A stretch of 63,939 nucleotides of DNA, filler included, from Dugesia japonica (Eukaryota), in assembly GCA_001938525.1 (NCBI GenBank). It is 5 parts of 5 records of this genome, joined end to end, with 100 filler letters (N's around TTAATTAATTAA, not from the genome) between each part and the next. Parts side by side here need not be neighbours in the genome. Positions count along the whole stretch, not along the records: positions 15,966 to 30,538 come from MQRL01546055.1; 4 more parts are not named here. One strand, 5' to 3'. The notes under the pieces were generated by a model that was not told where the DNA came from, did not search any database, and saw nothing but the letters and a program-made list of their open reading frames with translations. Numbering within the stretch: the stretch's first letter is position 1; every line of letters begins with the position of its first letter. Shown one piece after another: positions 15,866 through 50,900 of the stretch. A program made the translations under genes and the position numbers.

Positions 15866-15965
15866 NNNNNNNNNNNNNNNNNNNNNNNNNNNNNNNNNNN
15901 NNNNNNNNNTTAATTAATTAANNNNNNNNNNNNNNNNNNNNNNNNNNNNNNNNNNNNNNNNNNNN
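15866..15965. other. Artificial contig linker (44N-TTAATTAATTAA-44N)
   Basis: Exactly 100 nt with a 12-mer giving stops in all six frames; same construct at 30539, 41428 and 51440. Confidence 0.95.
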
Positions 15966-16217: not shown

Positions 16218-17010
16218 TCAATCAAGATCATAATTGGCTAAACGCTCTGGTAAACGTCTAGTACGCTCTGTTAGCGCATCCCTCTGAGTAGTTGATCCTT
16301 GTGCTTCATAATCATTAGACATTGAATCATCAAAAGCTTCATCGTCACTGTCTGTCTCACTGTCATCTGAGCTCTCATACTGCATTTCTTTCTCCTCGGA
16401 AAGCAAAGATTTTTCTTGGAACTTCCGAACATGCGATACGTGTCTTGAAACACCGTCACTATCCAGTTTGATACTAGCCGCCGAGTGAATTTTTGAGATT
16501 TTATGTGGCCCCGTCCAAGGATCATCACATCTGCCAGTAGATCGTAAATATACTAAATCGTCAATCTTAAACGGATTGTTGTCCAAATCTTGGTAAGGAT
16601 CATATTCATCGTTGCTTGATCGGCTTGATCCTGTAGCATGTGCAGCTGAGCTTCTTTCTCCTACATTGGGTAAACGCGGCTCAACGCGAAACATTAGCTC
16701 ATATGGACTTGCATGATGTCTACCGGCAGTACCATTGTACCACAACACACACTCGGCAACCGTTTTTCCTGTTCGTGCGGCCATGGTCTTTATCGTAAAA
16801 TGATTCCGTTCACACATTCCATTTCCTTGGGGACGATATGCAGATGTAAAAAGTTGATTAACACACCAAATCTCCATCATTTTTCTTAACCGCGCGACCT
16901 GGTAAGTCATACCGTTATCCGAATAAAATTCGTTAGGACGGCCGAATTCTGAAAACACGCTCTCTATCTGCTCATGTACTTCTTCGCTTGTTTCGTTCTT
17001 AACATTCCTT
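16218..17010 (-). mobile_element. Ty3/Gypsy-type integrase core and C-terminus (open frame)
   Basis: FGRPNEFYSDNG...FTSAYRPQGNGMCERNH (second D and E of DDE), W-TGPHKI motif, ends RTRRLPERLANY. Confidence 0.9.
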
Positions 17011-17252
17011 TGGTTCCACTGATAAACGCAATAACATTGTCATTGTGTTCTCGGGTATATGAATGGTTTGAGATGAGGAGTTCTGTGAGCATTGCGCCTA
17101 TGTAGATCGGATGTCCACAGTAAGCTTGGCGTCAACATGGTTATATTGTCGGAGGATAGAATACCCAGGTTGTTTAATGAGAGAAGTAACGGCTCAGGGG
17201 AGAAATCCTGCAGGCAAAACTCTCCACGTCATTCAGTATTGGGATAGCATCT

Positions 17253-17711
17253 ATGACTAGGCTTGGCTTCGGGTTGAACATTGCGCCGAAGGTTATGCCG
17301 AAGATAGTTGAGAGAGTTTTATCGGAAAATAAAACGTTCCAAGCTACAAGTTATATCGATTACATTTTTATCACGCCAAGAGGTTATGTAGCTAAGGAAG
17401 TTGTCGAGCATTTTGAAAGGTATGGATTGTCATCAAAACCCATAGAGAGATTGGGAGGTGGTGAAAATATCAGAGTTTTGGGTCTTAGCGTGAATAATGA
17501 CTACCAATGGTGTAGAGATAAGGAGTTGCCTCAGTACAAAAATGGCACGCTGACGCGGAGGGCAGTGCATGGAATCTTAGGTGAGTGGGTTAGTCACGTT
17601 CCTGTTGGCGGATGGTTAAGAGTAGCATGTGCGTATATACAACAATCAACGGCAAAGGAGAAAATAGGACGGAATGAAATTGTTATTGGCCGGATATGTT
17701 TTAATATCTGA
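17253..17711 (+). mobile_element. LTR-retrotransposon reverse transcriptase fragment
   Basis: MTRLGFGLNIAPKVM, SYIDYI (degenerate YxDD) and IRVLGL motifs. Confidence 0.8.
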
Positions 17712-18039: not shown

Positions 18040-18620
18040 ATATTTTGAAACCAGATAAATTGATAAGATGAATTTTCAGAATAACTTTAAAAAACATAGG
18101 GAGAGAATTACAGAAAAGAGAAAACAGATTCCAAAAGAAACTAAAGCAGAAAATCAGAACACTACATTAAATATTGGAGATTGGGTAATGGTAAAAACAG
18201 AAAAGAGAGGGTTAATAAAAAAGATATACAGGACCGTGGATGATAAGCAAGTTTCTCAGTAATTATAATTTAGAATTAGATGACAGAATGAAAGTAATTC
18301 GTCGAAATCTTCACCAAGTAAAACGATTCAAGGAAGAATTCAGAAATAAAAAATAAACGGTTAATGAATCAATCATTAGTGCCACATATTTGACAGTTAA
18401 CAAAAATGATGCAAAACGTTTTCTTATAGACATCTAAGAAGAATACGAAAGGCGATATTCAACGAGAGAGAGAGAGGAAGCCAAATCCAAAATATTTCAT
18501 CAACTTTTAAAAGAAAGAGGATTGTGATGTGTTTTAATAGTATTAATTAATTAGTGTAGATTTTAAATAAATTTTAGTAAACCCAAGTTTTTTTATTCAA
18601 TTATAAAAACACTAATCCAA
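18040..18620 (+). mobile_element. Gypsy integrase C-terminal remnant, PPT and start of 3' LTR
   Basis: LNIGDWVMVK...YTGPW...IRRNLHQVKRF across frameshifts; purine tract aaaagaaagagga (18509-18521) followed by TGTGATG. Confidence 0.65.
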
Positions 18621-19213
18621 AAATAAAACAGTAAATTTTTATAGTTTTTCTTGTTTAATAAAATTTGTAAAATATTTGATTATTTGTTGGTTAATTTATA
18701 GAAATTTTATTATTATATTGTTCTCTGTGTATCATACACCAACACAGCATACATCCCGGTTGTTCCAACATTGAGACAGGATAATCTACCAGGCTCAGCA
18801 GATTCCTTTGATAATAAAATAAAAGATATAATAATAGCTAAAACTAATTAAAATAAAATAATAACAATAGGAGTTATTATGGTATATTCATATAATATAA
18901 TTCAGATTAAGATAATAGAACTTTACAAATTGTATTTTATTTATTAACTTAACTAATAGGAAAACGCCCCAATCTTTTATCACGCTCGATTTAACACAAC
19001 AAATTTGTTTCAAAAGAAAAGAAATAAAAAAAATAAAACCCTAAATTGAAAATATTTAAAATCTGTTCTTCAATTGTTGTGCTTTCAGATTAGCTAGTAT
19101 TAACGCAGTAAGCTATATCCTTCATTTACCTCATTTGTTTGCAAACATAAAACATAATCAAATTTGCATTGAAAAAGAAGAAATAGAAATCCTAAAACTC
19201 TAAGATAACGAAA

Positions 19214-22200
19214 ATGAGTTTTGTAAACTATGAAAACGAAGAGCTGAACATAAATTCAATTTTTAAATCGAAAAAAAACATTCTCAACTATTTTAGTTAT
19301 GAAAATGGAACCCCACAAAAGTGGCTGGACTTCGTCAAGCTCAAATTACCATTATTGGGGATCAAATCTTCTGGAACACTATGTTCACATACCCTTTCAG
19401 CTCTTACCTAATGAAAATTTATTTAAATATTATAATTTAATTACTTCACCTTGCCATTCAAAGCATGTTTGATGAATTAAATACTTCCAATGTTAATCAA
19501 GTTTTCAACAAAAATTATTCAGAAGCAGATCAATTAGAAAATTATTTTAGCTTACTGAATCAAACTTATCAACAAAATGCTGCTATTAAAATGAAAAATA
19601 GCCTGTCAAATTTAAATCAATTCAATGATGTAAAAAATGCTATTAATAATCGAGAAATAAATCAATTGGGAACTTACATTAACCTTTTGAATCAAACTAT
19701 TCACGATTATGCCGCTATTAAAATGCATAATAGCATACAAACCAATAATCAATCCAATGTTGTAAAAAATGGGCTCATCAACAAGAACATAGATCAATAT
19801 TACCAATCAAACAATTCAGAAATAAAAACATTTCATTATTCCACCAATTCCAGTTTAAATAACTCTCAATATGAATATTACAACAGAGATCTTTTTTTAC
19901 AATTTTTCAAGGATTTCAGTCACGAAAAGCATTTTCTCTACCAAGATACAATGCAATTTATCGAGTACTTAAAATTAAAGATCATAAGATTTACCAAATT
20001 ATACTCTGCTTGTGACACTATTATGGATATTGGTAAATTCAAGGATGATCAGGTATCTAATGATTTCATATCTTTTATTATTAATACCAGTGATAAAAAA
20101 TATGATATATGTGACAAAACAATTCTTAAACTTAAAAATCTCCTAATTGAAATTTTCTGGAAATTATTGATTCTTTTTTCAATTGTTAAATCTGAGGAAA
20201 CAGATAATTTTTTTAATAAGATATGTGACGAAGATATTTTATTCCTCGAAATAATTAATACTTACTTCAACTGGAAAAGTTTAGAACATACTAATCTCAC
20301 TTACATAAATATTGAAAATTCTATTGAAAATTTAGAAAATTCTTCAATTAATAATCCCTGGTCTGAATTTACTAATGATTCTTTATCAAAAAACAAATCT
20401 TTGATATTAAAATTTAAAAAAATACTTTTGGCAAATTATCGAATTTTAAAAATGAAACTCCTGAAACAACAAATATTATCAATGCAAATTTTTCTGTAAC
20501 TTCTAATTTTACTAAAATGACTGATAATCTAAATATTAGAGAAGATTTTAAATGTGAAAATGAAAATTTAAAAAATAATTCTCAAATTCAAATGCATAAT
20601 TATATAACAAATAGCGGAAAAATTGTTAATAAAGAAGAAATTAAATCTTCAATTTTGAACTCTAATGAAATTAGTAAAATTAATATCAATGAAAATATTA
20701 ATTTAAATATTAATGATATTAACAAAAAAATGGCAGCCTTGTTTATATTACACCAATTGATGGCACAAATTCTAATGAAAAAATTTTTAAAAAAATTAAA
20801 AAGACGCACGAACAAACCAGCTTAGTAAGTAAAGATCAAACTATTATTTCTTTGAACAGTCAAACTCAGGAATCTGAGACGGAGCAAGTCTCTTTCAATA
20901 ATAATATGTCTCCATTGAATGTCAAAAACTACTTCAGACTGAAAGTACGTTTTCATAAAACTACTCTTTTCACTCTTCTCGAACATTATCTGAAAAATAA
21001 CTTTCTCTCAGAAAATAGTCTCTAAAATTCTCTCAATTGCTGAAAAAAATCTTAATTTCCTCTTCCCTCCTTGGGAAAGTTACCAAATCTCTTGATCAAG
21101 ACTTCTTAAAATTCATTAAGTGTCAAAATGGTAACAAACCTACTCCTTGGGAACTCAATATTCTCAATCATCTTTTAGATCTTAACAACCTCATTGATTT
21201 TGATAACATTAAACATGCAAGATTTTCATTTATTCAACGGGTGGCAACAAAAATTAAATCTAGTGACTTTGCTCTAAAAAAATAAGACATGCATATCAAA
21301 TTCCAAATCACCTCACTTGCTGAAACTTTAATGAAAAATAACTTAAAAATTAAAAAAATTCTTAATAGAAGAAATCTTATCACCGAATTGTTCGTCATTA
21401 AAACATCTAATGATATTATCGACAATATACAAAAACACTCAAACAATCTAGCCTCGTTTGCTAAACTTGAACTGGACTCAGTCATTAACAATTTCAATTA
21501 TCACATAAACATTACTGAAAAAACTGAAATAGCAAGTCAGTTTTTAAGTTCCTCAACCGACTTGAAAGTACTTACCAACTAAAAAAGTTGAACTCAAATG
21601 ATTTAAATTATATCAGAGATCAATCCCTTAACTATTCAATCTACATCAAAAAGAAAAGTATTCGAAAAATAATAGTTGGCATCCGTGAGGGAGAAGGATC
21701 AAATTATTGTTCATCTATTGAATCTATCGAAGAATGCAATCAGTATTATCAGTCTCTAAAAAACACTGACACTAGAGATGGAAATCCATCCCATGTTGCA
21801 GAATTTCATAATCCCTCCTCATCCAAATCTAATAAGAAACGCAATCAAGGCTCAACTAATAAAACTATTAATAGATTCCAGCTTCTGAATGAATTAACAT
21901 ATATTGATGATGCNCAACTTTCATCAGATTGTGTAGACTTAGACTGTTCTCCAACACATCGCAACATCTCCTCACCAAATTCATTTAACCAGCCTACTCT
22001 AGCTTCTAGTTTGACAAACAACTCGCAAACTCTGACTCATAACTCCATACGTGAGACCGGTAATCAATCTATCTCTAACCAGTCCACCGAAAGCATTTCT
22101 GGATTACAATATTTTCCTACTCAAGCACATAATGTCACTAATAGAATTATCAAAAACACTCATCTCAAAAACAATACTGAACGGACTTCTTCCGGCTTAA

Positions 22201-25200
22201 GTTATTCTCAAGATGATTGTCTCTCGGATGGTCTTTTCAGGTCTCTAAGCAAAATCCTTAGCTCTCCAAAACATCGTGAAAATAGCGGCAGTGATATCTT
22301 TTCTGATTCTAGTTCCAGCGACTTTTCTATTCAGGATCAAAACACGCATATCAAGACCGACAATTCTAATCAGCTGAAACTCCTACAAGTAACTCATCTG
22401 AAACAATTAGCTATCATAGCTAACCTCGTAGATTATCCTGATCCTAGGAAAATCAGCAGACAATCTCCAGATCAAGATTCTAAACAGAATAACGAAGCTA
22501 TTACTGACGTTCTTCAACAAATAATGTTCACGGACGAAACTAATAATACTAAAGAACCTACCGCAACTAGTCCAAAACATACAAAAAAATTAACTCCAAT
22601 AAAAGCCAGGAAGCCCACCACACATGATGTCAAAGCCTTGAAGTCTATCTACTCTCACAACTTCATTGCATATCGTCTCAATGTAGAAAAACAACTTAAG
22701 TGCACCCATCCGACTTCATGTGGAGGTGGAAATAAAAAATCCTATGTGATGGATAGCAAATTTCTCTTTGATCATTATTCGATTGATCATAAAATTAAAC
22801 TTAAAGAAAACTTCATCATACAATGTGATCTTTGTCCCATTTCTAATGGTCATAAGAAAGATTTCTTCTACTCTGACCTTAGATCTCATGATATCTCGTT
22901 TCACGGCTCCACACTTTCCAAACTACAAATCAAGAATGACAACAACGCCGAAAGAAGAGATCTCACTGGTTCAGGTAAGAACAGCCACTTTCTACTTGAA
23001 ATTGACTGCGTGTCTAACTCTGAAACCTGAAAATTTTCCTCCAAAAAAGACAAAAGCTGCGGAACCTCGTTTGAAAACTTAGAAAATCTTAATAAACTTA
23101 CAAAATCACATCAATATACTCCAGCAAATTGACATTGCTAACACTGACACTGTCATTCTCTGCAAATGTGGAAGTAGCACCAACTTTGATAATCTCAGAA
23201 CTCACATAGAAGTGTGCACTAAAACACCTATGAACAATCATTCTATCACCACTGAAGATTTCAATCTCCTGGAGTCTGATGCTAATGCTTTATGACTAAG
23301 CAACCATGTCGTTGAGGCTTATCTCAAGAAATTCATCTTGAATAAAGACTCTCTTTTTATTGATCCCTTTGTCAGTAATGCCCTTATGCATAACAACTGG
23401 GATGAATACTACAGCAAATTTCCTTTTAACAAAATCTTTAATGCAAAATACATCGTTTTTCCTTACAACTAGAATAACAGTCATAGGATTCTCTATTTTG
23501 TTGACCGGAATAAAAGTAGATCTATTCTTTTAGATGCTTATAGTTCCTACCTCCCAATGGATCAAATCCAGCTTCACCATAAACTTGATAAAATCTTTTC
23601 CAATTATTACTTTCCTAAAGAATAAATCTATATTCATGCTGACAGTTCATACGCTCATCCTTTACAAAAAATAGCAACGACTGTGGGATCTTCGTCATCC
23701 AATATAATAGATGTCTTCTCAGCAACACTCACATCACAGTACCTGATATCAAAGACTACCGCAAGCAAATCAAGTGTATGGTCTATGATAATATTAAACA
23801 AACAAAACTTAACCACTAAAAAGTTGCTAACCAGGATAATATTTCACAGATCACGAGAAGACTCTCTAATGGGTCAATCAATTCTACTGAAGCCCTTAAT
23901 GATATCCAAAGAGAATTAGCTAAAATTGTGCCTAGAAAATTCCTTAGTGGTAATCCGAAGCACTCGTACATCATATAAGGAATAACCTTTTAGAGTCTAG
24001 ATACAAAACTCCAGTCAAAATACCTCATGAATTCATCTGCTGTTTTTAATAGACTTATTGGCGCTTCTACTCCTGACTCGTGTCCTACCAAAAAGGACAT
24101 TATCAAAGAGTTTACTTAGAAAAAGCATAATAATCTTGACTTAACATCATACAACGAATTCAAGCTTCCTGTCTCTGAAGAGTTTCACAGCCACAATGAA
24201 ATTTTTTCCAAAGAAATTGAATTTGCTTTTAGCTGTGCTAGCAAGTCCTCTCCGTGTTTGGATAAAATTTCTTATTCGGATTGGTCGAAATTAGATGCTA
24301 AACATATCTTTCTTAAAGAACTCTACAACAAAATCATCAAGCAGAAAGATATTCCTGGTCAATGGAAAAATTTCCACACAACTTTGATTCTTAAACCTGG
24401 GAAAGAATCAGAATCACATATTATCTCCTCCTGGAGACCCATTGCTGTGCTTGATACCTCTTACAGAATCTTCGCCATCATTATGAATCACAGACTTCTC
24501 CATTGGATTAAACATGGTAACCTCCTTTCGGTTACCCAAAACGCTGTGAGTGTTTCCGATGGCTGCTCTCAGCACACTGAGAGCATTATTCAAATGATCA
24601 AAGAAAAAGCTGACAGAGAAAATTCCAAATTTAATCTTATTTGGCTTGACCTTGCTAATGCATTTGGTAGCCTGCCTCATGATTTTCTCTGGTACACTCT
24701 GAAACAATTAAGCTTTTAGGTGATCTCGATACAGATGTATCTTCTAGTTACAGTTGTTTCGACATCAACACTGGTAATATTGCTATTCATAAAGGCGTTA
24801 AACAAGGTTTTCCTATGTCTATGACTCTCTTTAGCCTTGCAATCGACTTTTTAATTCAAGATACAGCAAATAAATTTCCATTCATCAATTCAAGTTTTAA
24901 TACAGTCATCCTTGCCTATGCTGATGATCTCATGCTGATGTCCAACAATCAACGGAAAGTGTATCTATGTTAAACAACATTGTTAGTCTCGCTGAGATCA
25001 ACTTCGGCCAAGGCCTAGCAAATGTGGTTTCTTCACAAATAACAATCGATTTACTTCGAGCGAGATTCAAATCTATGGCGAAAAGCTCCCGATTATCGAT
25101 GAAGCTAACTTCTACAATTACCTCGGTGTACCTTTTGGCGAAAAAAAGAAATGCAGCCTTGAAAACATTATCTCTAAAGCCATTGAGGAGTGCATCAAAA

Positions 25201-26563
25201 TTTCTGAATCTGACCTTTATCCAGCTCAAAAAATACAAGCGTATAAAATGTTCATTCATTCGCGGCTTACGTACTCTATGCGGAACAGCAACATCCTACA
25301 CATGAAGCTCAACAATCTGCACCATAAGCCTGTTGATGGTTCTCCTGGTGAACCCGGTTTTGACCAAATTGTCAAGAAACTTATTAAAGGTATCATTGAA
25401 GCTCCTAATATCAGCCATAACAATGCTTATCTGTACCCTCCTTCTAATCTAAGAGAACTTAGTCTTATTTCATCAATTGATGAATATTATATTCAATCTA
25501 TCGTTCACGCACTTCGTACTCTTAACTCAGACTCGGAGGTATTTAGGAATTTTGTCACCTGCGAATTAGAGTTGTCTGGTAAACATCGCTTCCGTAAGGA
25601 TACTAGCTTCTCTTTGGAAAAGTGTTTGGATTGGATTAACGACTCTATCCCTCCTCAAGACAAAGCCGATGTTGTTACCTCGTGGTGGACTCGAGTCAGA
25701 ATTGCTATCAAAAGACTTAGAGTAGCGCATAAGATTATAATCTCGTTTTCCAGAGACGACGATCTTATCTCTCTTCGTTTATCTGACTTGGCTGATTATA
25801 ATGAAGACACCAAAATCATCTTCAATAATGAATCAAAATCAAAGACCTGCAAGGCGCTTCACAAAGAGATTGGTTACACCTACTATCAGAATTGGCACAA
25901 TCTATCTACTCAAGGCCTCGTTGCCAATGCTTTTGCTGCTTCTGAAATTCATGAAGAATATTAGCGTTTTGGAGAAGGACTTCTAATTCCTTGTCAGAGC
26001 TAGAAACAACATCCTTCGTACCAATTACAATTCTTACAGGCTCAAAAAGAACATGCCTACTCATTGCAGACAATGCACAAACACACATTTTTAATCACTG
26101 TCCAGCCATGAAGAACCAAAAATACAACAAACACAACAGAATTTTAGAGAAGACTGCATCCACCTTCAGGAAATGGGACTTTGACGTACAAACCAAATTG
26201 AGACCTGATCTTGTTGTGACTAGTAATATGAACAATAAGATTCACATTCTGGATGTCAAAGTACCATACGATTCCATTAAAGGTTTCTCTAAAGTTCGTA
26301 CTGATAACAAAATAAAATATGAAAAAATTCGTAAGGATCTGGGAACCAAGTATCACAAAGAGGTTACTCTCGATGCTCTTGTCATTGGTACTCTTGATTA
26401 ATGGGATCCTGCCAATCACAAAGCTTTCAAAGCTTTTGGACTTTATAATTAAGAAATTAAGCAAATCTCTCAAATTCTGACAGAAAAAGTTATCAAAACT
26501 AGTCATCGGATTTATCTTGATCATATGATAAACGAAGCTAGATTCAATACTATCGATTTTTAA
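19214..26563 (+). mobile_element. NeSL-like RLE-clade non-LTR retrotransposon (ZnF - Ulp1 protease - RT - CCHC/RLE), inactivated by frameshifts and stops
   Basis: C2H2-type fingers at ~22700-22905 and ~23000-23220. Ulp1/C48 protease motifs FPYN.NNSH.IL..VD...LDA and QKNSNDCGIFV (23300-23720). RT with SWRPIAV, WLDLANAFGSLPH, GVKQG.PMS and AYADDL (24917). RLE with THIFNHC..KHNRIL, RPDLV..ILDVKVPYD..KIKY..LVIGTL. Including 19214-21590 in the element is inferred from strand and continuity. Confidence 0.85.
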
Positions 26564-26744
26564 TCCAACATTTGTGATTCAGCAATGACAATACTATTGC
26601 TCGTGTATTTATTATTTTGTTAAAAACATTTTTGAGATGTTGATTTTTTCTAAATCTTTTGTGATCCAAGTTTTGGGTCTGATCAACCCCTTGAATGGTT
26701 AAAAAAATTTTATTTTATTCATTTATTTTTTTTATTATTCAAAA

Positions 26745-28000
26745 TTGCTGATTAAATTGGTTCCGTCGCAAAAGACGAAGAGCCATTCGAAAAGCTTTAT
26801 AATATTTTACTCAATAAGAATAAACTGTATAAAAGGCAAGTGCTGAAAGATTACTCTAATAATACCTAACTAGGGAACAATAAATCAACTTATTTTCCAC
26901 ACCAGCTCAAGCACAATTCAGAAAATGTTCAATCAAATATAACTCCAACTCAACCGAGTTATTAAAAATGTTTTCTACGCGAGCAATATAATTCGAATCA
27001 CGGAAAATCCTTGCAGACAGTAATACGGACAAAGTAGAAACACGGCCAGAAATAGCAGATAAAATAAATAAAGAAATTAATCCCGTCATCTGTAGCACCA
27101 AATATCAAATGAACTAAGACAGTAACACAAAATTACTGATAAAATCCCTGATGTCCAAAATGGACAACGTATTCACAAAAAATAAGCAAATCAAAGAAGA
27201 AATAAATGAAATAAAAAATTCTCGAAAACGAGAACAAAATTACGGCTCTCACTGAAACTACGACAGTAGGACACATTCTAGGGTCTTACCACAAAATCGA
27301 TTCCATTCAGGTAATTAGAATCACAAACCATTTGACAACAAACACGAAAATAAAAACACAAACTGGTGTTATTTTCACAGAAAATTTGCGGACAAAGACT
27401 ATACGTGCGTCAAACCGTGTAGATACAATCTAAAAAAGAGAAAACCGAAAATGTCGCCAGTAGTAGAACCTGCATTCGGTCACAATAATCACATTTTCGC
27501 GGTAAATTTAAATAACATTGAATTTTTAATAGATACCGGTTCAATGATTTTACTACTTTCACATTACCTTTATAAAAACAGCTCCAGAACAAGCAAAAAA
27601 TTAAATGCAACCAATGGTTCAACTATTAACACGTTTGGTGATAAGCACCTAACAATCACCGTTAATAACAGAACCTACAAATAAACCTTCACAATCTCTG
27701 AAGTCCCGCAGGCTATAATAGGAGCAGATTTCTTGACATCCCACAAGTTGCTGGTAGATTGTCATAACAAAACAAGGATAGAAAATACAAACAATGGTAA
27801 CCTAGTAAATACAACACAGCTCAACAGAACAAAAAACCAAAATAGACATTTGAGTAGTGAACATAACCCCAACAGAATATCACAAACATAATTTAACAAT
27901 CCTGAACGAAAAAAACATTTTATTGTAAAAAAATACAAAAGTATTACAGAAGACAAAAGTTACTCGAAACTTTTCCTTCATAACAGAGCACGCTATCATA
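26745..28000 (+). mobile_element. Ty3/Gypsy gag-protease remnant
   Basis: EPFEKLYNILL...LGNNKS...RKILA...IADKI gag pattern, WCYFHRKF...CVKPC, protease FLIDTGS (27520) and AIIGADFL. Confidence 0.8.
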
Positions 28001-30199: not shown

Positions 30200-30259
<60 letters not shown>

Positions 30260-30309
30260 NNNNNNNNNNNNNNNNNNNNNNNNNNNNNNNNNNNNNNNNN
30301 NNNNNNNNN

Positions 30310-30374
<65 letters not shown>

Positions 30375-30376
30375 GT
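30200..30376. repeat. (ATT)n microsatellite spanning a gap
   Basis: Pure tattat runs on both sides of the N gap. Confidence 0.95.
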
Positions 30377-30538
30377 TGTTAGGCTGAAACACCTGGTACC
30401 GAAAATAAAAATAGCGATAAGTATACTCGAAATTCAAAAAAATTGTCGTCAAAAAAGAACCAAAGAAATAACCAAAATTACAGCAAGAAACAACTCAGAA
30501 ATAAGTAAACCAGAGAAGAAAAGAAGTAATAGAAGCTG
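30377..30538 (-). mobile_element. Terminal fragment of the 55375-56965 LTR family (opposite end), abutting (ATT)n
   Basis: tgttaggctgaaacacctggtaccgaaaataaaaatagcg matches the reverse complement of 56925-56965; the downstream caagaaacaactcagaaataag also matches ~56780-56803. Confidence 0.75.
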
Positions 30539-30638
30539 NNNNNNNNNNNNNNNNNNNNNNNNNNNNNNNNNNNNNNNNNNNNTTAATTAATTAANNNNNN
30601 NNNNNNNNNNNNNNNNNNNNNNNNNNNNNNNNNNNNNN
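30539..30638. other. Artificial contig linker
   Basis: 44N-TTAATTAATTAA-44N. Confidence 0.95.
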
Positions 30639-36400: not shown

Positions 36401-39001
36401 TACAATTTGGTTAGAAGAGATTTGGAGGAAAAGACCTGGATCATTTTTAAAGCCTAAATCTGTTCTTATTATTGATTCTGCTCCATGTCACTTAACTCCT
36501 ATGGTTGAGATAAAAAACATTCCCAAATTGCTGTAATACGAGATAGTCTTACTAAAAAATTACAGCCTTAGACATATCAGCTTTAAAAGTCATATACGGA
36601 ACAAATGGGGAAAATGGATGATTGAAGACTATCACACATTTACAAAATGCGAAAAGCATCAGTTTCAGAGGTTTGTAAATGGATTGTTGAAGCCTGGTCT
36701 TTAGTGACAACAAATTGTGTTAAAATTGGCTTGTAGAAAGCGCAAATTTTAAGCAATGGCAAAACTTTTATTAATTGTGAGTCAAGTGAAGGAATAAAGA
36801 GGAATGCTGAAATTTTGGAAGAACAGCTTCCTCAACCCTTTCTTAATCTTATGGATTCTCTTACTGTCGAATCAGAAGAAAATTATCATTAAAAATAAAA
36901 TACATATATGTATGTAGTTAAAGTTTTTTATTCATTTCGACTTTATTTTACTAATTTTTAAATGTACCCGTGTATAAACGCACACGTATTTTCCATAAAA
37001 AATGCTACTTTTTTTTATTGTATAACACGCGTGTTATACACAGGATTTTAGGGTATATACATTTTCTCAAAGTACTCCTGAAACTCTTCAAGATCTCAAA
37101 AATAATTTCTTAATAAATTTTTATAAATTAATTTTTCTAAACTTGAATAGTTAACTTGACTTCAGCTTATTTTCAAAATAACAATTTCCATAATTCTCAA
37201 GTCAACTTTTTCACAATAACAGAATATTACTTATGAATTATCATTCCAAAGTTAAATTATTTTTGCGAAAGTTATCAATAACTTGTTTACTAAAAAATTA
37301 TTGTCTTAATTCAAAAATCGATTTGTTTTAAATTCAAGAAATGAAGATATAGTCTGAAAAAACAAAGAAACTCCACAACAAATCATCACTCAATCTCTTT
37401 CAACGATAACAAGAGATTATTTAATTATCTTTGCATATAAAATCTTTTTTTGGTTTTAAATAATTATATGAAAAATATAATTAAATAATTGTCCGGGGGG
37501 TATTGTCCTGATACCTTGATTTATATAGCAGCATTGTTAAATATTATATAAATGATTTTATATTTTTGTAAATTAATTCCATAACAAGAGATGCTTGCTA
37601 GATTCCGAACAAATACTTCTTGATTTTGGTAAATGAATTAGAAAATGAAAAACATTGCAAAAAAAACAATACAATAATTTAAAAGCTGTCACGAGACTCT
37701 TGTGTCAATTTCAAAATTCAAAAATATAATAAAGAAATATCTTTTAAGACTTCATTTCACAGACTATTAACCCTTTGATGTCCGATGGTACTAGAAAGTA
37801 CCATCATGTAAATATACGCTTAAAACTATAACAGAGTTTTATTTATCTACATTCGCTAGCAGGAAATAAAACATAGCCTAACAAAAAAATAATACAAAAT
37901 AATTTTTTNAAAAAATCGGGAATTTTAAATTTTTACTTATTTCAGACTAAAAAGGGTTAATTCAAACGATAAGGTGTTTGACAAATAGACTCTCCGGTAG
38001 GAACACCAAGGTATTGATAAAATTCACGAATTGTGTTTAATTCATGGATAAGGAATCTAACACAATTGATGAATGTTATCAATACCTTGGTGTTCCAATT
38101 GGAGAGTCTACTGATCAAACACCTTATCAACTGTTGGATCTGATGCTGAAAAACTGGCAAGTTCTGATTTATTTGGTTGGCAAAACTAAAATCGAACAAA
38201 GTCTTTCTCCATTCTAGATTGGTATTTCCNNNNNNNNNNNNNNNNNNNNNNNNNNNNNNNNNNNNNNNNNNNNNNNNNNNNNNNNNNNNNNNNNNNNNNN
38301 NNNNNNNNNNNNNNNNNNNNNNNNNNNNNNNNNNNNNNNNNNNNNNNNNNNNNNNNNNNNNNNNNNNNNNNNNNNNNNNNNNNNNNNNNNNNNNNNNNNN
38401 NNNNNNNNNNNNNNNNNNNNNNNNNNNNNNNNTTTGAAAAATGGAAGAATAAGAATATAATCATACATAATTCTTACAGAATATATGAAGATAGGCAAAG
38501 GAATAACGATGATTAAGATAAAATTACAGAAAACTTTTGGATTTTCAATTTAAAATATACAACAGAAATTTAGTTTACAAATCATTCATAAAAGTAATTA
38601 ATAATACCTTAATCCTTCTACCTCAAGCGTATATTTTTCGACGACTTTCATAATCTCCTCAGATTCCAAATCCAAAATATTTACTTCAAAACCATTGTTA
38701 TTTTGTTTAATCATTTGCCAATTGAAAGACTCCTTTTCCGCAAGAACTTGGGCATTACGTGCCTTTTAAAATTCAAATATCAAAAGAAGATAATTTAATT
38801 TACCAAAGTTTATTATAAATTATAATTATAGAAAGAGTAGCACTTTAGCATGAAATGAAAACTTACTTTTAGAGATTCAATAGTTTCTGATAAAGCTTTA
38901 ATTTTAAGTCGTAAACCTTGATTTTCGGATTGCAATATATTATTTTCAGTGTATATATCACTGAACCCACCTTCGTCTTTTGAATCGGCTGATCTTTTAC
39001 C
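33471..39001 (-). CDS. KIF21: KIF21-like kinesin-4, internal coiled-coil exons 38867-39001, 38608-38762, 34133-34323, 33801-33992, 33471-33751 (gene continues beyond the contig)
   Basis: GT-AG exons splice in phase to GKRSADSKDEGGFSDIYTENNILQSENQGLRLKIKALSETIESLK...YTLEVEGLRAKLAEAEAM...acidic linker...LATLSTEIDVKKRLISELQ...YETQLEALQNRIKETEQERDQVLANLG...RKVKNEYEKKL. This is collinear with the post-motor stalk of KIF21A/B. Confidence 0.9.
34375..35285 (+). mobile_element. Non-autonomous Helentron/DINE-like element(s) in the KIF21 intron
   Basis: Starts TACTAG next to a short hairpin (gcggcaagccgc). Three copies of a (caaa)n-acaccactgggttttcatat end at ~34770-34822, ~34870-34915 and ~35225-35283. 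The family call is by resemblance. Confidence 0.5.
35801..37515. mobile_element. Mutator-like (MULE) non-autonomous element with long TIRs and 9-bp TSD
   Basis: TTGATTTAT at 35792-35800 and 37516-37524; ~80-bp imperfect inverted ends (ggacaattatttaattatatt...). Confidence 0.75.
36039..37053 (+). mobile_element. Internally deleted pogo/Tc2-like DDE transposon nested in the MULE element
   Basis: Perfect 25-bp TIRs ccctaaaatcctgtgtataacacgc (36039-36063 / 37029-37053), followed by TA on the right. Transposase remnant TGAEKCNFTVVL..DGGKLPPMVIF..VLIIDSAPCH..LQPLD. Confidence 0.9.
37771..37956. mobile_element. piggyBac-like MITE
   Basis: TTAA|CCCTTT...AAAGGG|TTAA. Confidence 0.75.
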
Positions 39002-43984: not shown

Positions 43985-46900
43985 AAATGGGCGATGATGT
44001 CGAAAAATTTATTCTAATGACAACGAAATATTTTGATATAGCCGGAACAAAGAAAAACTATTGGAATTTGGTTACAATTGGTTTCATAGATAAAAGTTTA
44101 CGGGAAATCTATGAAAATGACGACGAAGCATAGGGATTTGAAAAAAGATTCAAAAACGCTTTCTTTAGGCTACCAATAATGATTAAAGATATAGAGAAAG
44201 CTCTAAATTATTGTTGGAGTGCAGAGCATATAAATATCTATAAGATGAAGATTGGAGGATTGGTAAAAAAGTTAATGGCTCGTAAATGTAACAAAGATGA
44301 CTTTAAAAAGGAGTTAATAATGAATAGTGGCAATGACAGAAAGATAATACATAAAATCAAATCAGGAAAAATAGAAAAGTAGAAGATGTATTTAAAGCAA
44401 TAAAAGAATGGGAAGACATAAAGACGAAGTAAAAACTGAAAAAATAAATGTAGTTCGTAACTACAGAGATGCAGTTCGCAGAAGTTCAGAACAAAGAAAT
44501 TTCATTAAGAGTCGTAATGACGAAATACAACAGAACAGAAACCACGAAAGACGAGAAATCACGTGTTGGACCTGTAACAAAATAGGTCATGTAAGAAGAA
44601 ATTGTCAAGAAAAATAAAGTGTTATGGTTGTGGATCTGAACAACATTTGAGAAGAGACTATACAAAAGTTAATTGCTTAAGATGCTACAAGAAAGGACAC
44701 TACACACAAATATGAACAGAAAGTTTAGTTATCAGAAAAAATGTGAACAGGACAGAAAAAAATTGGAAATAGCAAATAAAGATATTATTCGAACAATACG
44801 AATAATTACACAGAAGGAATGGAAGTCATGTTAATTTAATTGTGGAAAATGGGAAAGATTGTGTATGTAGAAAAGTAAAAAAAGGAAAAAAAAGGATCAA
44901 ATATTTATAAAAATTGTCAAGCTCTGACCGAAGTCGAGATTGTAGTAGTGCTGAACTAAGTATCCTAAAAAATCGTTGTAAAAGTTGTATAAATAATGAT
45001 ATAAATAAAAGAAACGAAGATAAACGAGTAGATGAGTACAATGATGTAAAAGAAAAGTTTACAACTTTATAAAGAAAGAATTGAGTAGTGGCCAACCAGA
45101 GATGATCAATGATATAAATGGGGAAAAAGACAGTGAAATTGTGACGATAAATGAGATAAAGCGACAAGAGATAAGTTATGACAAGGTGCAAGGTAGACCA
45201 AGTATAACGGTTGAAATACAAGGCGTAAAAGTTAGACACTGGAGCAAGAGTTAATGTGATGAGTTGGATAATTTTGGAAAGATTGTGAAAACCGAATGTA
45301 TTAAAAAGTGAAGACAATTTAAGATGTGCCAATAATAGTCCGCTCGAAATAGTAGGTACGATAAAGGTAGAAGTAGAATTTGAAAATAAAAGAGAAACAA
45401 TTAAATTCATTGTGGTTTAACAGATACATCCAGATCTAATAGATGGAATAGAATTACAGGTATCTGCTTAGATTCCAACTGCTGAGAGAGACTAAATGTG
45501 ATGACAACGAAATGTATCTTTGTAATATAGAAGCAAAGTATGGACGCAGTACAACAGATGAAGAGAGAGTACAGAGAACCATAAAAGTATTGATTAATAA
45601 GCCAAATGAGAATTTAGAGAAAGTTATAATGATTCATAAAGTAATATTCATGGCAGACAACTGGGATATTGGCCGAACAACAATGACTGAACATCAAATA
45701 ATCACAAAAGAAGAATCAATAAGTACGAAACCATGGAGACAACCAATGCATTTAGGGAATAAGATAGATGACGCTATCAAGAATTTGTTTGACAATGGCA
45801 TTTTTAGGAAGTGTAATTCGCAATGGAACAATTCGTTAATATGTGTTTGGAAAAAAGAAAGAAAAGACGTTAGATCATGTCTAGAATTTTTGAAACTGAT
45901 TGCAATCACAGAATGACAGGCATTTCCGATATTCAATGTAGACGAAATACTAGACGATTTGAGTGGTGCAAGATATTTTACTACTGTTGATTTTTACTGT
46001 TGATTTTACTACTGTTGATAAACGTTCCGTTATATTTAGATTTATAAAAGAAAACGCATTTTCTACTGAAAAATGGACAGTATTGTTTAACAAGAATGCT
46101 TTTTGGTATAGTTGGAGCCCCTGGAACGTTTCAAAAATTAATGACAAAAGTATTAGGAAAACTGAGAGGAACAATGGTATACATGAATGATTTATTGATA
46201 TTATCAGAAAGTTAAGAGCAGCACTAAAGAACTTTAGACCAAGTTTTAAAAGAATTCGAAAATCAGGATTGAGAATTAATCCGGAAAAATGTCACTTGTT
46301 GGGAGCAGAAGTCAAATTTTTAGGACATGTCATAGACACGAATGGAGTTCGAACTGATCCAACAAAAATTGAAGCGATAAATAATTTCAAAAGACCTAAA
46401 TGTGTGAAGAACTTGAGAAGCTTTTTGGGAATATGCAATTACTATAGACGATTTATCAATAATTACTCAAAGAAAGCTAGAAGCTTGGAAGAGCTTTATC
46501 GATGTAATAATACAAAACTTGAAAGTTGGGATAAAGCTTTTAATGAAATGAAAGAGGCATAACAAAAGTACTGATATTGAGTTTTCCAGATATCAAACAG
46601 ATGTTTGTACTATATACAGAAGCGAGTTTTGATGCAATTGGAGCAGTTTTATCGCAAATAAATGAAATACATTTTGAATAAGTCATTGTATATGGGTCAC
46701 ATGCAATATCAGCTCATGAAAAAGGATTTTGTATAACAAGAAAATAATTATTGGCTATTTACAATTTTTGTAACCATTTTAAACATTATTTGTATGGAAA
46801 AAGATTTTTGTTGAGAACAGATTACAAGGCAATAGCATTTATGAAAAAGACTAACAAGTCAATTTCAGACTTGGATGAAGTTTCTTAGTAGTTTGGATAT

Positions 46901-47920
46901 GAAATTGGAATTTAGACAAGGTGCAAAACATACAAATGTAGATATGCTGTCAAAAAGGAACTGTGGTACAATACTTAACAAATCATAAGAATCCAAAGGA
47001 AGGAAAAATAAAGACAAGAACAATTAATGGTATATCAGGTTCAGATACATATAAATGGCAAAGTAATGTAGAAAAAATTGAACAGATAAAAAATAATTTA
47101 AAAATAGAACATGTAAAAGGTTTCGATTAATAAAAGATATAATAACAACAAAAGACGGTAAACTATGGATCTCGTCAGGAAAGAAAAGTTAAATGGTAAA
47201 AGAAATGCATAACTTATTGGTGTACACAGGCACGGAAAAAGTGATAAATTATTTGAAAAATGAATATTATGTGTAAGATTGGAGAGAAATAGTGTCAAAA
47301 GTAATTAAAGAACGTACAGCGTGACAAATGAACAATGTAACAACATTTAGAAAAAAGAAGGAAACTATAAAATTAAATGTTAATGAACCATTTGAGAGTA
47401 TTTATATTGATATCTGTGGACAATTCCAAGAAACCTTAGAAAGAAAAAGATATATGTGCCATAATAAATAAATTTAACAGATACATATGCTTAATAGCCC
47501 TTGTTAAACAAGATGAAGAATCAATAAATGGATACTGAGATTTGGTGCTCCTAAAGAGATACATTTCAATTTTGTGAAGATCTTCGAATCAAAAGCCTTA
47601 AAGAGATGACAGATTCAATGAATATAACAATTGGCTTTTCAAGCCCATATCACCATAATACAAATGGAATAGTAGAAAGTCAATTCAGAACGATCAGAGA
47701 TTACATCAATGCAACATTAAAAGATAAAAAGAATAAAAATTGGGTAGAGTTGATAACAGAAATTGAATATACACTAAATTCATAAAGTCAAAAGACTTTG
47801 GAGATAAGAGCGGCAGAAGTGATATTCGGTAAAAAGATAATTAGAGAAAGATGATTCAATAATGGTGAAAAGAATGAAGAATCTGAAGAGTTGACATCAA
47901 CAAAGAGACATTTTTAAGAA
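43985..47920 (+). mobile_element. Near-full-length decayed Ty3/Gypsy element (gag-PR-RT-RH-IN)
   Basis: Gag with CWTCNKIGHVRRNC and further knuckles; protease LDTGA (45233); RT ...VKFLGHVID..LRSFLGICNYYRRFI; RNase H YTEAS; integrase FSSPYHHNTNGIVE. Many stops. Confidence 0.9.
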
Positions 47921-47949
47921 AAGACGAGACTTAACTGGGGACCCCGCCA

Positions 47950-50900
47950 AATATGTTAATGTAGTGACACACCATCATTAACGAAAATTAATTTTAGAAG
48001 CCTTGCCTAAAAAGACTCAGTAGCTTATCAATTTTAATATAAAAAAATATGATGGCAAAGATGCTTCAGAAGCTACAATATGGCTGAAAGAAATCAAAGA
48101 ATGGCTCATTTTGAATGATTGAAGCTTGATGGGAAGGTTTGATCTCTTGTTATCTGAGGAAGCCGGAGTTTTATAGAAAAATTCTAAGTGGAATGAAATT
48201 ACGAAAGAAAAGGGAAAAATGATTTATAGACACTTTTACAACAAAGAAGTTGATGGCAGAAATGAATTATAGAGCTTGAACCAGTTAAACAAGAATCAGA
48301 AGAGAAATTTGCAACGTTCGAGATACGAGTAAGACATTTAGTTAACTGTGCATTAAATTTAGGGTTAAGTCATGACGAAATTATAAATGATTTACTGACA
48401 AAGAAAGTCAGGAATCAAAATATGCGAGAAACGCTTACAACAAGATCAGATATTAAAGTTGTTGAGATGAGATCTCTTGCAAAAATATATGAAGATAAAG
48501 AATATTTTCAACGCGTTGCTGGGAATGAAGATATTTATGCAATATAGAGAAAAATTTATTAAAATGTGTTAAAAGGAGACCGAAGTGATCATCAGAGTTG
48601 AGCTCAAAACCAGCAGTAAGTTAGTTTTAAAACCAATAATAATGTAAGATTTGAAAAACCAAGAACAGAAATGTCAAACTATCAGAGAAAATATGAGAGG
48701 GTGTCACCACCTATAATTACAGAGAACAGAACACAGGTTTAAGTAGGATATCAACAGTTTCGATGAAACAGATTGCAAGATGTTATTTTAACAGATGTAG
48801 AGGATTGACAGAACCACAAGAAAAAGAATTACGAGAAGGGTAATGTTATTGTTGTGGAGAACATGAACATATGCGTTATCAATATCCATTAAAAGACAAA
48901 TTTTCGAAAGCTGGACACAATTCCCGCCAATGCTGTCTTGTGCAAGGTCGATCTAATGGCCCAAATACTAAACTTTTATGCATACAAGAAGAACAAGATG
49001 TACAAAAGGACGAAGATGAAGTCTTTGAAATGAATGATATTGTCAAAAAAAAAACCAGAACAATTCCGTTGCATACATTTGATCACTGAAAAAGTTTAAT
49101 TTCCGATGCCAGAAATCCAGTTATTATTGGATTGCTTAGCAAGTGCAAAAATATTTTCTTCAATTGATCTAGGACAAGCTTACTACGTTGTAGAATTATC
49201 AGAAAACTTGAGAGATGTTACGGCATTTAGTACAAAAGAGGGTCAATTTAGGTTCAATTGGATTCCATTCGTGTTGGGAACGGCACCGGCAAAGTATCAA
49301 AAGTTGATGCATGATATATTAGCATGGGTAATTTTTAAAGGTGTCATCGTATATCTAGATGGTATATTAGTGTATGGAAAGAACATCGAAGATCATAATA
49401 AAATTTTGAAAGAAGTTTTTAACAGAATCAGAGAATCAAAATTGAAGATAGATGCAGGAAAATGTAAATTTTACCAAAAAACAACTGGTATTTTTGGGAC
49501 ATACAATAAGTGCAGAAGAAATAAAAACAAACGAAACTAAGATACAGGAAATAGAAAATGCCGAAGAACCAAATTATTCATCTAAACTCAGGTCTTTTCT
49601 TGTCTTAACGAATTATTACATGCGTTTTATCAAGGATTACGCCAGAATTGCTACACCTTTATATGAAGCTATTCCAGGATGTGACAAACCTTGATGTGGA
49701 CAGAATCATGTAGAAAAAGTTTTGAAAGCTTAAAAGACAAGTTAAGTTGTGCACCAATTCTCGATTACCCAAGAGAAAATAGAATGTTTATCCTAGATAC
49801 TGATGCAAGTTTCGGAACTATTGGTGCAGTGTTGAGTCAAAGAACGGGAGATAGTGAAGAAGTGGTAATACCATATAGATCAAAGCACTTCACTGCTCAT
49901 GAAAAGAGTTACTGCGGTTCAAGAAAATAATTGCTGGCGTGACATGATTATATGGTACATTTCAAGCAATATCTATACGGAAAGAGATTCTTGGCAAGAA
50001 CAGATCACAATTCACTGATATTTATGAATAACACAAAAAAACCGATAAGCCCACAATTTCAAACGTGGAAGGCAAATCTGGGAGAGTATGACTTTGAGTT
50101 AAAATATCGAAAATGCTGATGGATCATCGCGGATAAACGAGAGTTTATGCTCACAATGCCAAACAGTACATTTGGATGCCAAGAAAGGAAAATCATGAGT
50201 AAAATATATTAATATTATACAGGAGAATGAAAACATCATAGAAAAAATTCGGAAGGCTCAGAAAGATGATCCAATAATTCAAAGAAGAATTGAAATAATG
50301 CAAAACGAATTACATCTAGTAAAATAAATCATACAGCAAAACTAATTGGATAAATTTGATCGCGAATTGAAAATTGATGATGGATTATTAGTCAAAGAAA
50401 GAGAAAATAAAAATTTGATAATAGTACGAACGAGTATAAACAACGAAATCATCAAACTTATTCATGAAGAATTTTGTCATTTAGGAATAAAGAAAACATT
50501 TTCATATTTAGAGAACAATTATTACTGGCCTACAATTATGGAGACTATTAAAAATAACTTGAATAAATGTGTGATTTGTGCAAAAAGGAAAATTTATTAA
50601 AGAAGAACAAAAGAACTGATGTTACCTAGAAAGTGTCAAGATATTTTAAAACAAATTGTGGTAGATATTGCTCATATGGAAACTGTGGCACCAGGAAAAA
50701 AAACATGGTGGTGATAATTAGTTTTATTTGTTTTCTTCATTTCAGTCAACTAAATTAAGACTTTTGATTCAATACTTAATTTAAAATACAAATGATTCTT
50801 CTTTGAAATTCTTCTTGCTTTTTGAACGCTTCTTTCAAAACTTGCCTTTCCCAATTTATATTTTTAAATAATAATAAACTTAAATAAATGTACACTATTG

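What the first reader, a model, noticed from the sequence alone, without database searches (positions are those of the whole stretch)
21588..26563. Non-LTR retrotransposon carrying a SUMO/Ulp1-type protease and 3-4 zinc fingers upstream of RT
Seen: domain order ZnF cluster, His...Asp...Gln/Cys protease (NSH.IL, LLDA, QKNSNDCG with Cys at 23682), RT (YADD), RLE (PD..D..K). The protease lies in frames not shown in the ORF track. Established: Ulp1-like proteases occur in NeSL-clade elements, several of which insert sequence-specifically into small-RNA or rRNA genes. Inference: the protease could process the polyprotein or counter SUMO-dependent silencing. I found no SL, U2, tRNA or rRNA target in the flanks; the 3' end abuts a Gypsy gag, so the target preference may be new or absent.
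Basis: partly seen in the sequence, partly recalled or inferred. Interest (0 to 1): 0.75.

Follow-up and report, generated by a model that had tools for sequence, protein, structure and literature searches.

The report
Protease-carrying LINE with likely stop readthrough
This is a decayed 7.3-kb jumping gene of a known group, sitting inside another jumping gene and carrying a SUMO-protease-like enzyme; a stop codon at the enzyme's first conserved residue is likely read through by ribosomes, and the enzyme likely cuts the element's own long protein.

Summary
This is a decayed RLE-type non-LTR retrotransposon with zinc fingers, a C48/Ulp1-like protease (His 23482, Asp 23533, Cys 23682), RT and RLE. 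Pfam misses the broken pieces, but a profile from C48-positive relatives hits both halves (E 1.7e-12, 2.3e-6). Ulp1-bearing NeSL-clade elements are published, so the domain order is known. Corrections: the element probably starts about 2 kb earlier (about 19428-26734) and lies inside a Gypsy gag, not beside it; no small-RNA target was found. Its RT falls in a protease-rich lineage apart from nematode NeSL, possibly flatworm R5/LIN (not testable here). Two extras raise interest. (1) A TGA in a leaky context (TGA-CTA) occupies the protease's conserved Trp. In 13 of 15 closest families the called protein starts just after that column, and none has Trp there, which suggests lineage-wide readthrough; an earlier scan note says the same for another genome. 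(2) In sister lineages, 9 of 11 scorable families carry Gly-Gly 43-49 residues after the catalytic Cys, a likely self-cleavage site, absent in 0 of 15 of this subclade's families. Neither mechanism is shown. New variant of a known kind.

The parts
19214..19427 (+). 5' part of the Gypsy-like gag that was interrupted (host element)
   Evidence: Contigs in both DNA runs join 19390-19404 to 26780-26829, skipping about 7.4 kb (3 joints per run); translation
19419..19427 (+). Candidate 9-bp target-site duplication, left copy (TTATTTAAA)
   Evidence: one mismatch to the right copy; AT-rich, so chance is possible (inferred)
19428..26734 (+). Whole insertion, about 7.3 kb: decayed RLE non-LTR retrotransposon
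   Evidence: Empty-site joints and internal links 20236->22234, 20783->21024, 20791->21229; chain of + strand ORFs; exact ends inferred
19441..22700 (+). Long N-terminal ORF1-like coding region in several frame-broken pieces, with a 132-bp duplication and a Ser/Asn-rich stretch; no family match
   Evidence: no hit in Pfam, Atlas or 289 held proteins
22701..22904 (+). Two CCHH zinc fingers
   Evidence: Motifs in sequence
22959..22979 (+). DLTGSGK: candidate Gly-Gly-like cleavage site before fingers 3-4 (speculative)
   Evidence: Only such motif found in the element's frames; LxAGG lies before the finger pair in P0269 and P0274
23028..23217 (+). Degraded third finger and CCHC fourth finger
   Evidence: similar finger pair in P0269/P0274
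23293..23298 (+). In-frame TGA-CTA at the conserved Trp-Leu column that opens the protease; candidate readthrough site
   Evidence: column identified from S5 Fig of PMC4640811
23293..23800 (+). C48/Ulp1-like cysteine protease (His 23482, Asp 23533, Gln 23665, Cys 23682); broken by stops at 23470 and 23623 and a frame break near 23668
24186..25260 (+). Reverse transcriptase (YADD at 24917), two frame breaks
   Evidence: RVT_1 E 1.5e-10; phmmer; trees
26065..26563 (+). CCHC knuckle and PD-(D/E)xK restriction-like endonuclease
   Evidence: Motifs; tblastn with relatives
26564..26734 (+). 3' UTR ending in an A-run followed by a degenerate poly(T) tail
   Evidence: Sequence; resembles the 3' ends of LIN24_SM and LIN26_SM
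26735..26743 (+). Candidate target-site duplication, right copy (TTATTCAAA); the Gypsy-like gag resumes here

Best explanation
This is a decayed NeSL-clade non-LTR retrotransposon with a Ulp1-like protease before its reverse transcriptase, lying inside a Gypsy gag; its enzymatic half is likely made by occasional readthrough of a UGA at the protease's first conserved residue, and the protease likely trims the resulting polyprotein at Gly-Gly-type sites. Shown: domain order, catalytic triad, RT placement, empty-site joints, the TGA-CTA. Inferred: one long reading frame of about 2,350 codons, as in the 2,421-aa relative P0132; abundant N-terminal zinc-finger protein ending at the UGA and a rarer fusion with protease, RT and RLE, as in gag/gag-pol; Trp insertion would supply the equivalent of Ulp1 W448; insertion by target-primed reverse transcription with a 9-bp duplication. 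Odds by step: identity 0.95; TGA is lineage-wide rather than decay 0.6; readthrough given that 0.7; self-processing is a real role of the protease in this subclade 0.45 (0.8 in the sister lineages).
For: Protease: profile hits; C48 in 6 of the 9 best RT hits at or near the Pfam cut-off; nearest solved relatives of the domain are Ulp1 and SENP1. Tree: window RT in a 12-row clade with support 1.0, where 11 of 11 others have a protease hit, inside a 31-row clade with 23 hits; same. Stop: 13 of 15 subclade families have called proteins that start after the Trp column (two only 2-3 residues after it); the other 2 run through with Glu/Lys; none has Trp; outside the subclade 5 of 18 scorable families start after it (Fisher p 0.0009). 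CTA is only 11 of 130 Leu codons here, and UGA-CUA is a known leaky context where Trp can be inserted (PMC4973966 passages). W448 and W515 line the Gly-Gly tunnel of Ulp1 (PMC9603560 passages). Gly-Gly 43-49 residues after the catalytic Cys in 9 of 11 scorable sister families, against about 2% expected per family. Of the copy's stops, those at 23470, 24117 and 26450 are listed as sense codons in other copies, the TGA is not (only 40 of about 1,300 differences were shown).
Against: No relative's DNA at this codon was seen; the start-site test rests on gene-caller starts, on a grouping made after seeing the data, and on related families; 8 of 26 outside families were unscorable and P0092 was mis-scored. 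This copy has 10 in-frame stops in the segments counted, and another Trp codon has also become a stop (23470), so decay is a fair reading. No strong 3' RNA structure after the TGA (z -1.33). P0269 and P0274 lack Trp at this column, so it may be dispensable. The Gly-Gly site after the protease is absent in 15 of 15 subclade families and 10 of 10 scorable nematode-like proteins; the window's DLTGSGK is a single imperfect candidate. No structure model could be made. In Tca2, sequence flanking a gag-pol UGA was not enough for readthrough (PMC2194720 abstract).
Confidence: 0.5

Rival explanations
1. Ordinary dead copy of a single-ORF NeSL-type element: the TGA is a decay mutation, and the protease is a captured deSUMOylase that stays fused to RT and removes SUMO from host chromatin, repair or silencing factors at the insertion site.
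For: Many stops and frame breaks; no Gly-Gly site after the protease in this subclade; closest solved folds are SUMO proteases; SUMO represses R1/R2 in Drosophila (PMC7676866 passages); Ulp1 domains recur in Ginger and Mutator transposons (PMC2836005 passages).
Against: No subclade family shows Trp at the column and 13 of 15 start after it. In the Drosophila work, knockdown of Ulp1 itself also raised R1/R2 expression, so the direction of effect is not simple. No SUMO-binding surface was tested.
Confidence: 0.27
2. Two-ORF element: the TGA truly ends ORF1, and ORF2 is started anew just downstream by reinitiation or non-AUG initiation, giving a protease without the first Trp.
For: Termination-reinitiation is known for SART1 and L1 (PMC5972666 passages); R5 is recalled as having two ORFs (not read; one search found no copy); two subclade families lack the Trp.
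Against: No AUG at a shared position after the column: called starts scatter from 2 to 93 residues downstream. The frame is unbroken from the CCHC finger into the protease, and the stop sits exactly on a domain-initial conserved codon in a leaky context.
Confidence: 0.15
3. The element family targets Gypsy gag sequence, or the 7.3-kb insert is a compound of two elements (19428-21500 being unrelated).
For: The one insertion seen lies in a Gypsy gag with no rRNA, snRNA, SL or tRNA nearby; the upstream 2 kb has lower GC and no homolog.
Against: Contigs link 20236 to 22234 and 20725-21572; planarian LIN26_SM and LIN24_SM land in other repeats as off-targets; no second Gypsy junction was seen among the rows shown.
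Confidence: 0.08

Closest known systems
NeSL-1 of Caenorhabditis and Utopia-1_TSP (NeSL clade; PMC4640811)
   Same: N-terminal zinc fingers, Ulp1-like protease, RT, CCHC knuckle, RLE, in this order
   Different: RT only 29% identical to the Caenorhabditis protein P0027 and in another clade; no SL1 or U2 target; about 7.3 kb with a long N-terminal region; TGA at the Trp column where most NeSL proteins have W
R5/LIN lineage of planarians (LIN9/15/24/25/26_SM, R5)
   Same: NeSL-clade RLE element in an AT-rich animal genome; T-rich 3' end; off-target insertion into other transposons
   Different: No 28S or tRNA target here; 3' UTR is not that of the five LIN families shown; the paper read names a protease only for nematode elements; no R5/LIN protein was available for the tree
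Ulp1/SENP SUMO proteases (Peptidase C48)
   Same: His-Asp-Cys triad, oxyanion Gln, His-Trp motif in relatives; best solved matches 1euv and SENP1
   Different: Element-borne; the W448 column is a stop here or Glu/Lys in two relatives; substrate unknown
gag-UGA-pol expression in Tca2 and UGA-CUA readthrough in Sindbis virus and mammalian genes
   Same: In-frame UGA between a structural-type ORF and the enzymatic ORF; UGA-CUA context
   Different: Not found described for an RLE non-LTR element in the searches run; here the stop lies inside a domain

Membership tests
NeSL clade (RLE non-LTR) | C-terminal CCHC knuckle plus PD-(D/E)xK endonuclease, no APE | tested here: met
NeSL clade (RLE non-LTR) | RT groups with NeSL/Utopia/R5 | tested here: inconclusive
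   Nearest hits include Caenorhabditis NeSL-like P0027 and RNase H-bearing Utopia-like P0039, but the tree has no named R5, Utopia, R2, R4, CRE or HERO rows and a long-branch root
NeSL clade (RLE non-LTR) | N-terminal zinc fingers | tested here: met
   Two CCHH, one degraded, one CCHC
NeSL clade (RLE non-LTR) | Ulp1-like protease upstream of RT (in some families) | tested here: met
NeSL-1 (nematode, SL1-specific) | RT in the nematode NeSL branch and insertion in spliced-leader genes | tested here: not met
   Separate clade, 29% identity; no Rfam match at the junctions. One origin for both protease-bearing clades is not rejected (AU p 0.20)
Utopia | U2 snRNA at the 3' junction | tested here: not met
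   No U2 by Rfam; no target-like motif near either junction
R5/LIN lineage | RT clusters with R5 and LIN families; flatworm host | not testable with these tools
   No named R5/LIN protein among hits or in the supplement searched; host not identified
R5/LIN lineage | T-rich 3' tail | tested here: met
   26700-26734 against S6 Fig; by eye only
R5/LIN lineage | 28S rRNA or tRNA target | tested here: not met
   one copy only, and off-target copies are known for LIN24/26
Peptidase C48 | His-Asp-Cys triad with oxyanion Gln in C48 order | tested here: met
Peptidase C48 | Direct PF02902 hit on the window's own sequence | tested here: not met
   on pieces split by the frame break; relatives hit up to E 3.9e-12
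Peptidase C48 | Cleavage after Gly-Gly of SUMO or another ubiquitin-like protein | not testable with these tools
   Needs an assay
Programmed stop-codon readthrough | Stop conserved across copies and relatives | tested here: inconclusive
   Indirect start-site test supports it; no DNA of relatives obtained
Programmed stop-codon readthrough | Leaky context UGA-CUA | tested here: met
Programmed stop-codon readthrough | 3' stimulatory RNA structure | tested here: not met
   z -1.33; 22 of 200 shuffles fold as well; decayed copy

The most novel reading that the evidence does not exclude
A large, mostly unnamed lineage of RLE non-LTR retrotransposons expresses and matures its protein like a virus: one branch makes protease-RT-endonuclease by UGA readthrough at an active-site Trp column, and sister branches carry a leader protease with up to two degenerate copies that cuts itself free at a SUMO-like Gly-Gly site. 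That would give the first concrete, testable substrate for the Ulp1-like proteases that transposons keep capturing.
Probability: 0.4. Interest if true: 0.75.

Novelty: new variant of a known kind. Interest (0 to 1): 0.5.

Why it matters
Ulp1-like domains recur in NeSL, Ginger and Mutator elements, and the papers read offer only suggestions for their role. The conserved Gly-Gly site names a specific bond to test, and the UGA names a specific codon. If both hold, early-branching LINEs, whose R2 relatives are being developed as genome-writing tools, use gag-pol-like stoichiometry control and polyprotein processing. If not, this is one more dead NeSL-clade copy, still showing the protease well outside nematode NeSL.

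Tried and rejected
No genome is held, so junctions of all copies could not be aligned. Word-based homolog searches with the thumb ORF and with the finger-protease piece found nothing. Related-locus scans gave 2 unrelated loci with an N-terminal APE-type region in metagenomes and none in viral or prokaryote contigs. The Atlas gave no hit for the upstream ORF and, for P0004, an unnamed RVT_1 cluster with C48 on 28% of members and no taxa. No structure model was obtained, so the fold is unchecked. Expression: no RNA holder was listed; two RNA runs gave 168 and 54 reads, mostly under 90% alike, so nothing is concluded about this copy. Contig depth rises towards the 3' end, which fits 5'-truncated copies but is no copy number. 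The first tree dropped the window row and was redone without 35 near-duplicate or long-branch rows. U2, SL, tRNA, rRNA and ribozyme matches at the ends: none. Folding of the 3' UTR was unremarkable (z -1.04). Literature searches found no report of readthrough or Gly-Gly self-cleavage in NeSL-clade elements; Repbase, Malik and Eickbush 2000 and Burke 2003 were not readable, and may describe part of this.

Full report
1. Observation. The copy is decayed: 9 in-frame stops in the segments counted plus the TGA at 23293, and several frame breaks. An exhaustive search with the first RT piece returned 4,315 proteins at E up to 0.001. Among the 9 best hits, 5 pass the C48 cut-off and a sixth is just under it; the 3 others start within or after the domain. 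A profile of 12 such N-termini hits the two halves of the window's domain at E 1.7e-12 and 2.3e-6, and nothing else in the window significantly. The protease is real.

2. Extent and site. Contigs of two DNA runs each show three joints from 19390-19404 to 26780-26829: the flanks are contiguous in other copies, so about 7.4 kb was inserted into a Gypsy-like gag that starts at 19214. A 9-bp repeat with one mismatch (19419-27, 26735-43) in the same reading register is the candidate target-site duplication; the joints only bracket it, so the ends are inferred. Joints 20236->22234 and a contig running 20725-21572 tie the upstream 2 kb to the rest. The coding chain from 19468 to 26563 is about 2,350 codons, close to the 2,421-aa single-frame relative P0132, though no sequence similarity to it was found upstream of the protease. 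The 3' end is T-rich like LIN24_SM and LIN26_SM, which also land in other transposons (S6 Fig of PMC4640811, parts 1-2 of 3). No rRNA, snRNA, tRNA or U2-like target lies at either end. One insertion says nothing about preference.

3. Placement. In a 154-row RT tree the window falls in a 12-row clade (support 1.0; 11 of 11 other rows have a protease hit) within a 31-row clade (0.98; 23 with a hit), apart from the branch holding the Caenorhabditis and Acrobeloides proteins (35 rows left out as duplicates or long branches). A 35-row tree agrees; holding both protease-bearing clades together is not rejected (AU p 0.20). All close relatives are unnamed. The host is an animal (SRP fragment); a planarian host and R5/LIN membership are my inference from composition and the tail, untested. 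PMC4640811 (passages, Introduction, part 2 of 5 of the text, S5 Fig whole) names the protease for nematode NeSL and Utopia-1_TSP only.

4. The UGA. TGA-CTA at 23293 sits on the Trp-Leu column that opens Ulp1-like domains. I had noticed that close relatives begin just after it; an earlier scan note (e1-7879953) then reported the same stop in four elements of another genome, and I tested it. Of 15 subclade families, 13 have called proteins that start 2-93 residues after the column; P0269 and P0274 run through from zinc fingers with Glu or Lys there; none has Trp. Outside the subclade, 5 of 18 scorable families start after it, 8 of 26 were unscorable, and one of the 5 (P0092) was mis-scored (p 0.0009, families not independent). 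Several source contigs are 5-8 kb, long enough to hold upstream sequence. The stop-free pair nests inside the subclade, which fits a later loss of the stop. UGA-CUA is a known leaky context and Trp is among the residues inserted (PMC4973966 passages); W448 lines the Ulp1 tunnel (PMC9603560 passages; the match of this column to W448 is recalled). Against: no relative's DNA was seen, the copy has another Trp-to-stop change, and there is no strong downstream structure.

5. What the protease cuts. In the sister lineages, 9 of 11 families with a scorable catalytic motif (19 examined) have Gly-Gly 43-49 residues after the Cys, usually as L/T/K-x-G-G-G; a tenth has L-K-G-S-G; background is 0.27% per position. 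This resembles the SUMO end that Ulp1 cuts and lies at the domain boundary, before one or two degenerate protease-like repeats. It points to self-cleavage. It is absent in 15 of 15 subclade families and 10 of 10 scorable nematode-like proteins (13 examined). In the subclade, LxAGG precedes the finger pair in P0269 and P0274, and the window has DLTGSGK in a similar place; that is thin. DeSUMOylation of host factors stays open: SUMO represses R1/R2 in flies, yet Ulp1 knockdown also raised them (PMC7676866 passages); other transposons carry Ulp1 domains (PMC2836005 passages).

6. Verdict. The architecture is known; this is a new variant. The likely UGA readthrough and the Gly-Gly site were not found in print in ten searches, but Repbase and the original NeSL-1 and R5 papers were not readable. 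Other papers seen: PMC5678591 (passages, supplement searches), PMC5009743, PMC5972666, PMC7650587 (passages), PMC2194720 (abstract). Interest 0.5.

Noticed in passing
P0015, P0019, P0020, P0023, P0168, P0052, P0166, P0083, P0132, P0285: Sister-lineage elements carry one intact C48 domain followed by a conserved Gly-Gly site and then one or two degenerate protease-like repeats before RT.
   Followed up: partly
window 37960-38230: Short fragment of a second NeSL-like element, best matched by the WFTD sister lineage (P0015/19/20/23), with an adjacent inverted piece, ending at a gap. Both lineages live in this genome.
   Followed up: partly
window 17097-17261: S-domain fragment of metazoan SRP RNA (121.7 bits) running directly into a degraded LTR-type RT frame (17190-17711), back to back with an integrase on the other strand (16218-17039); possibly a template-switch chimera.
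   Followed up: no
window 18523-18770: LTR-like segment (TG...CA) after a purine-rich tract and ahead of the interrupted gag; very high contig depth. Not verified as an LTR.
   Followed up: no
window 19513-19771: 132-bp in-frame tandem duplication (74% identity) at the start of the ORF1-like region.
   Followed up: no
window 19905-20205: RNA reads of a diverged relative of the ORF1-like region in one oligo-dT run, about 13 reads; a related family may be transcribed.
   Followed up: no
window 15866-15965 and 30539-30638: Assembly gaps carrying a TTAATTAATTAA linker, and an (ATT)n array near 30200-30380.
   Followed up: no
window 44300-49600: Further degraded Gypsy-type pol frames.
   Followed up: no
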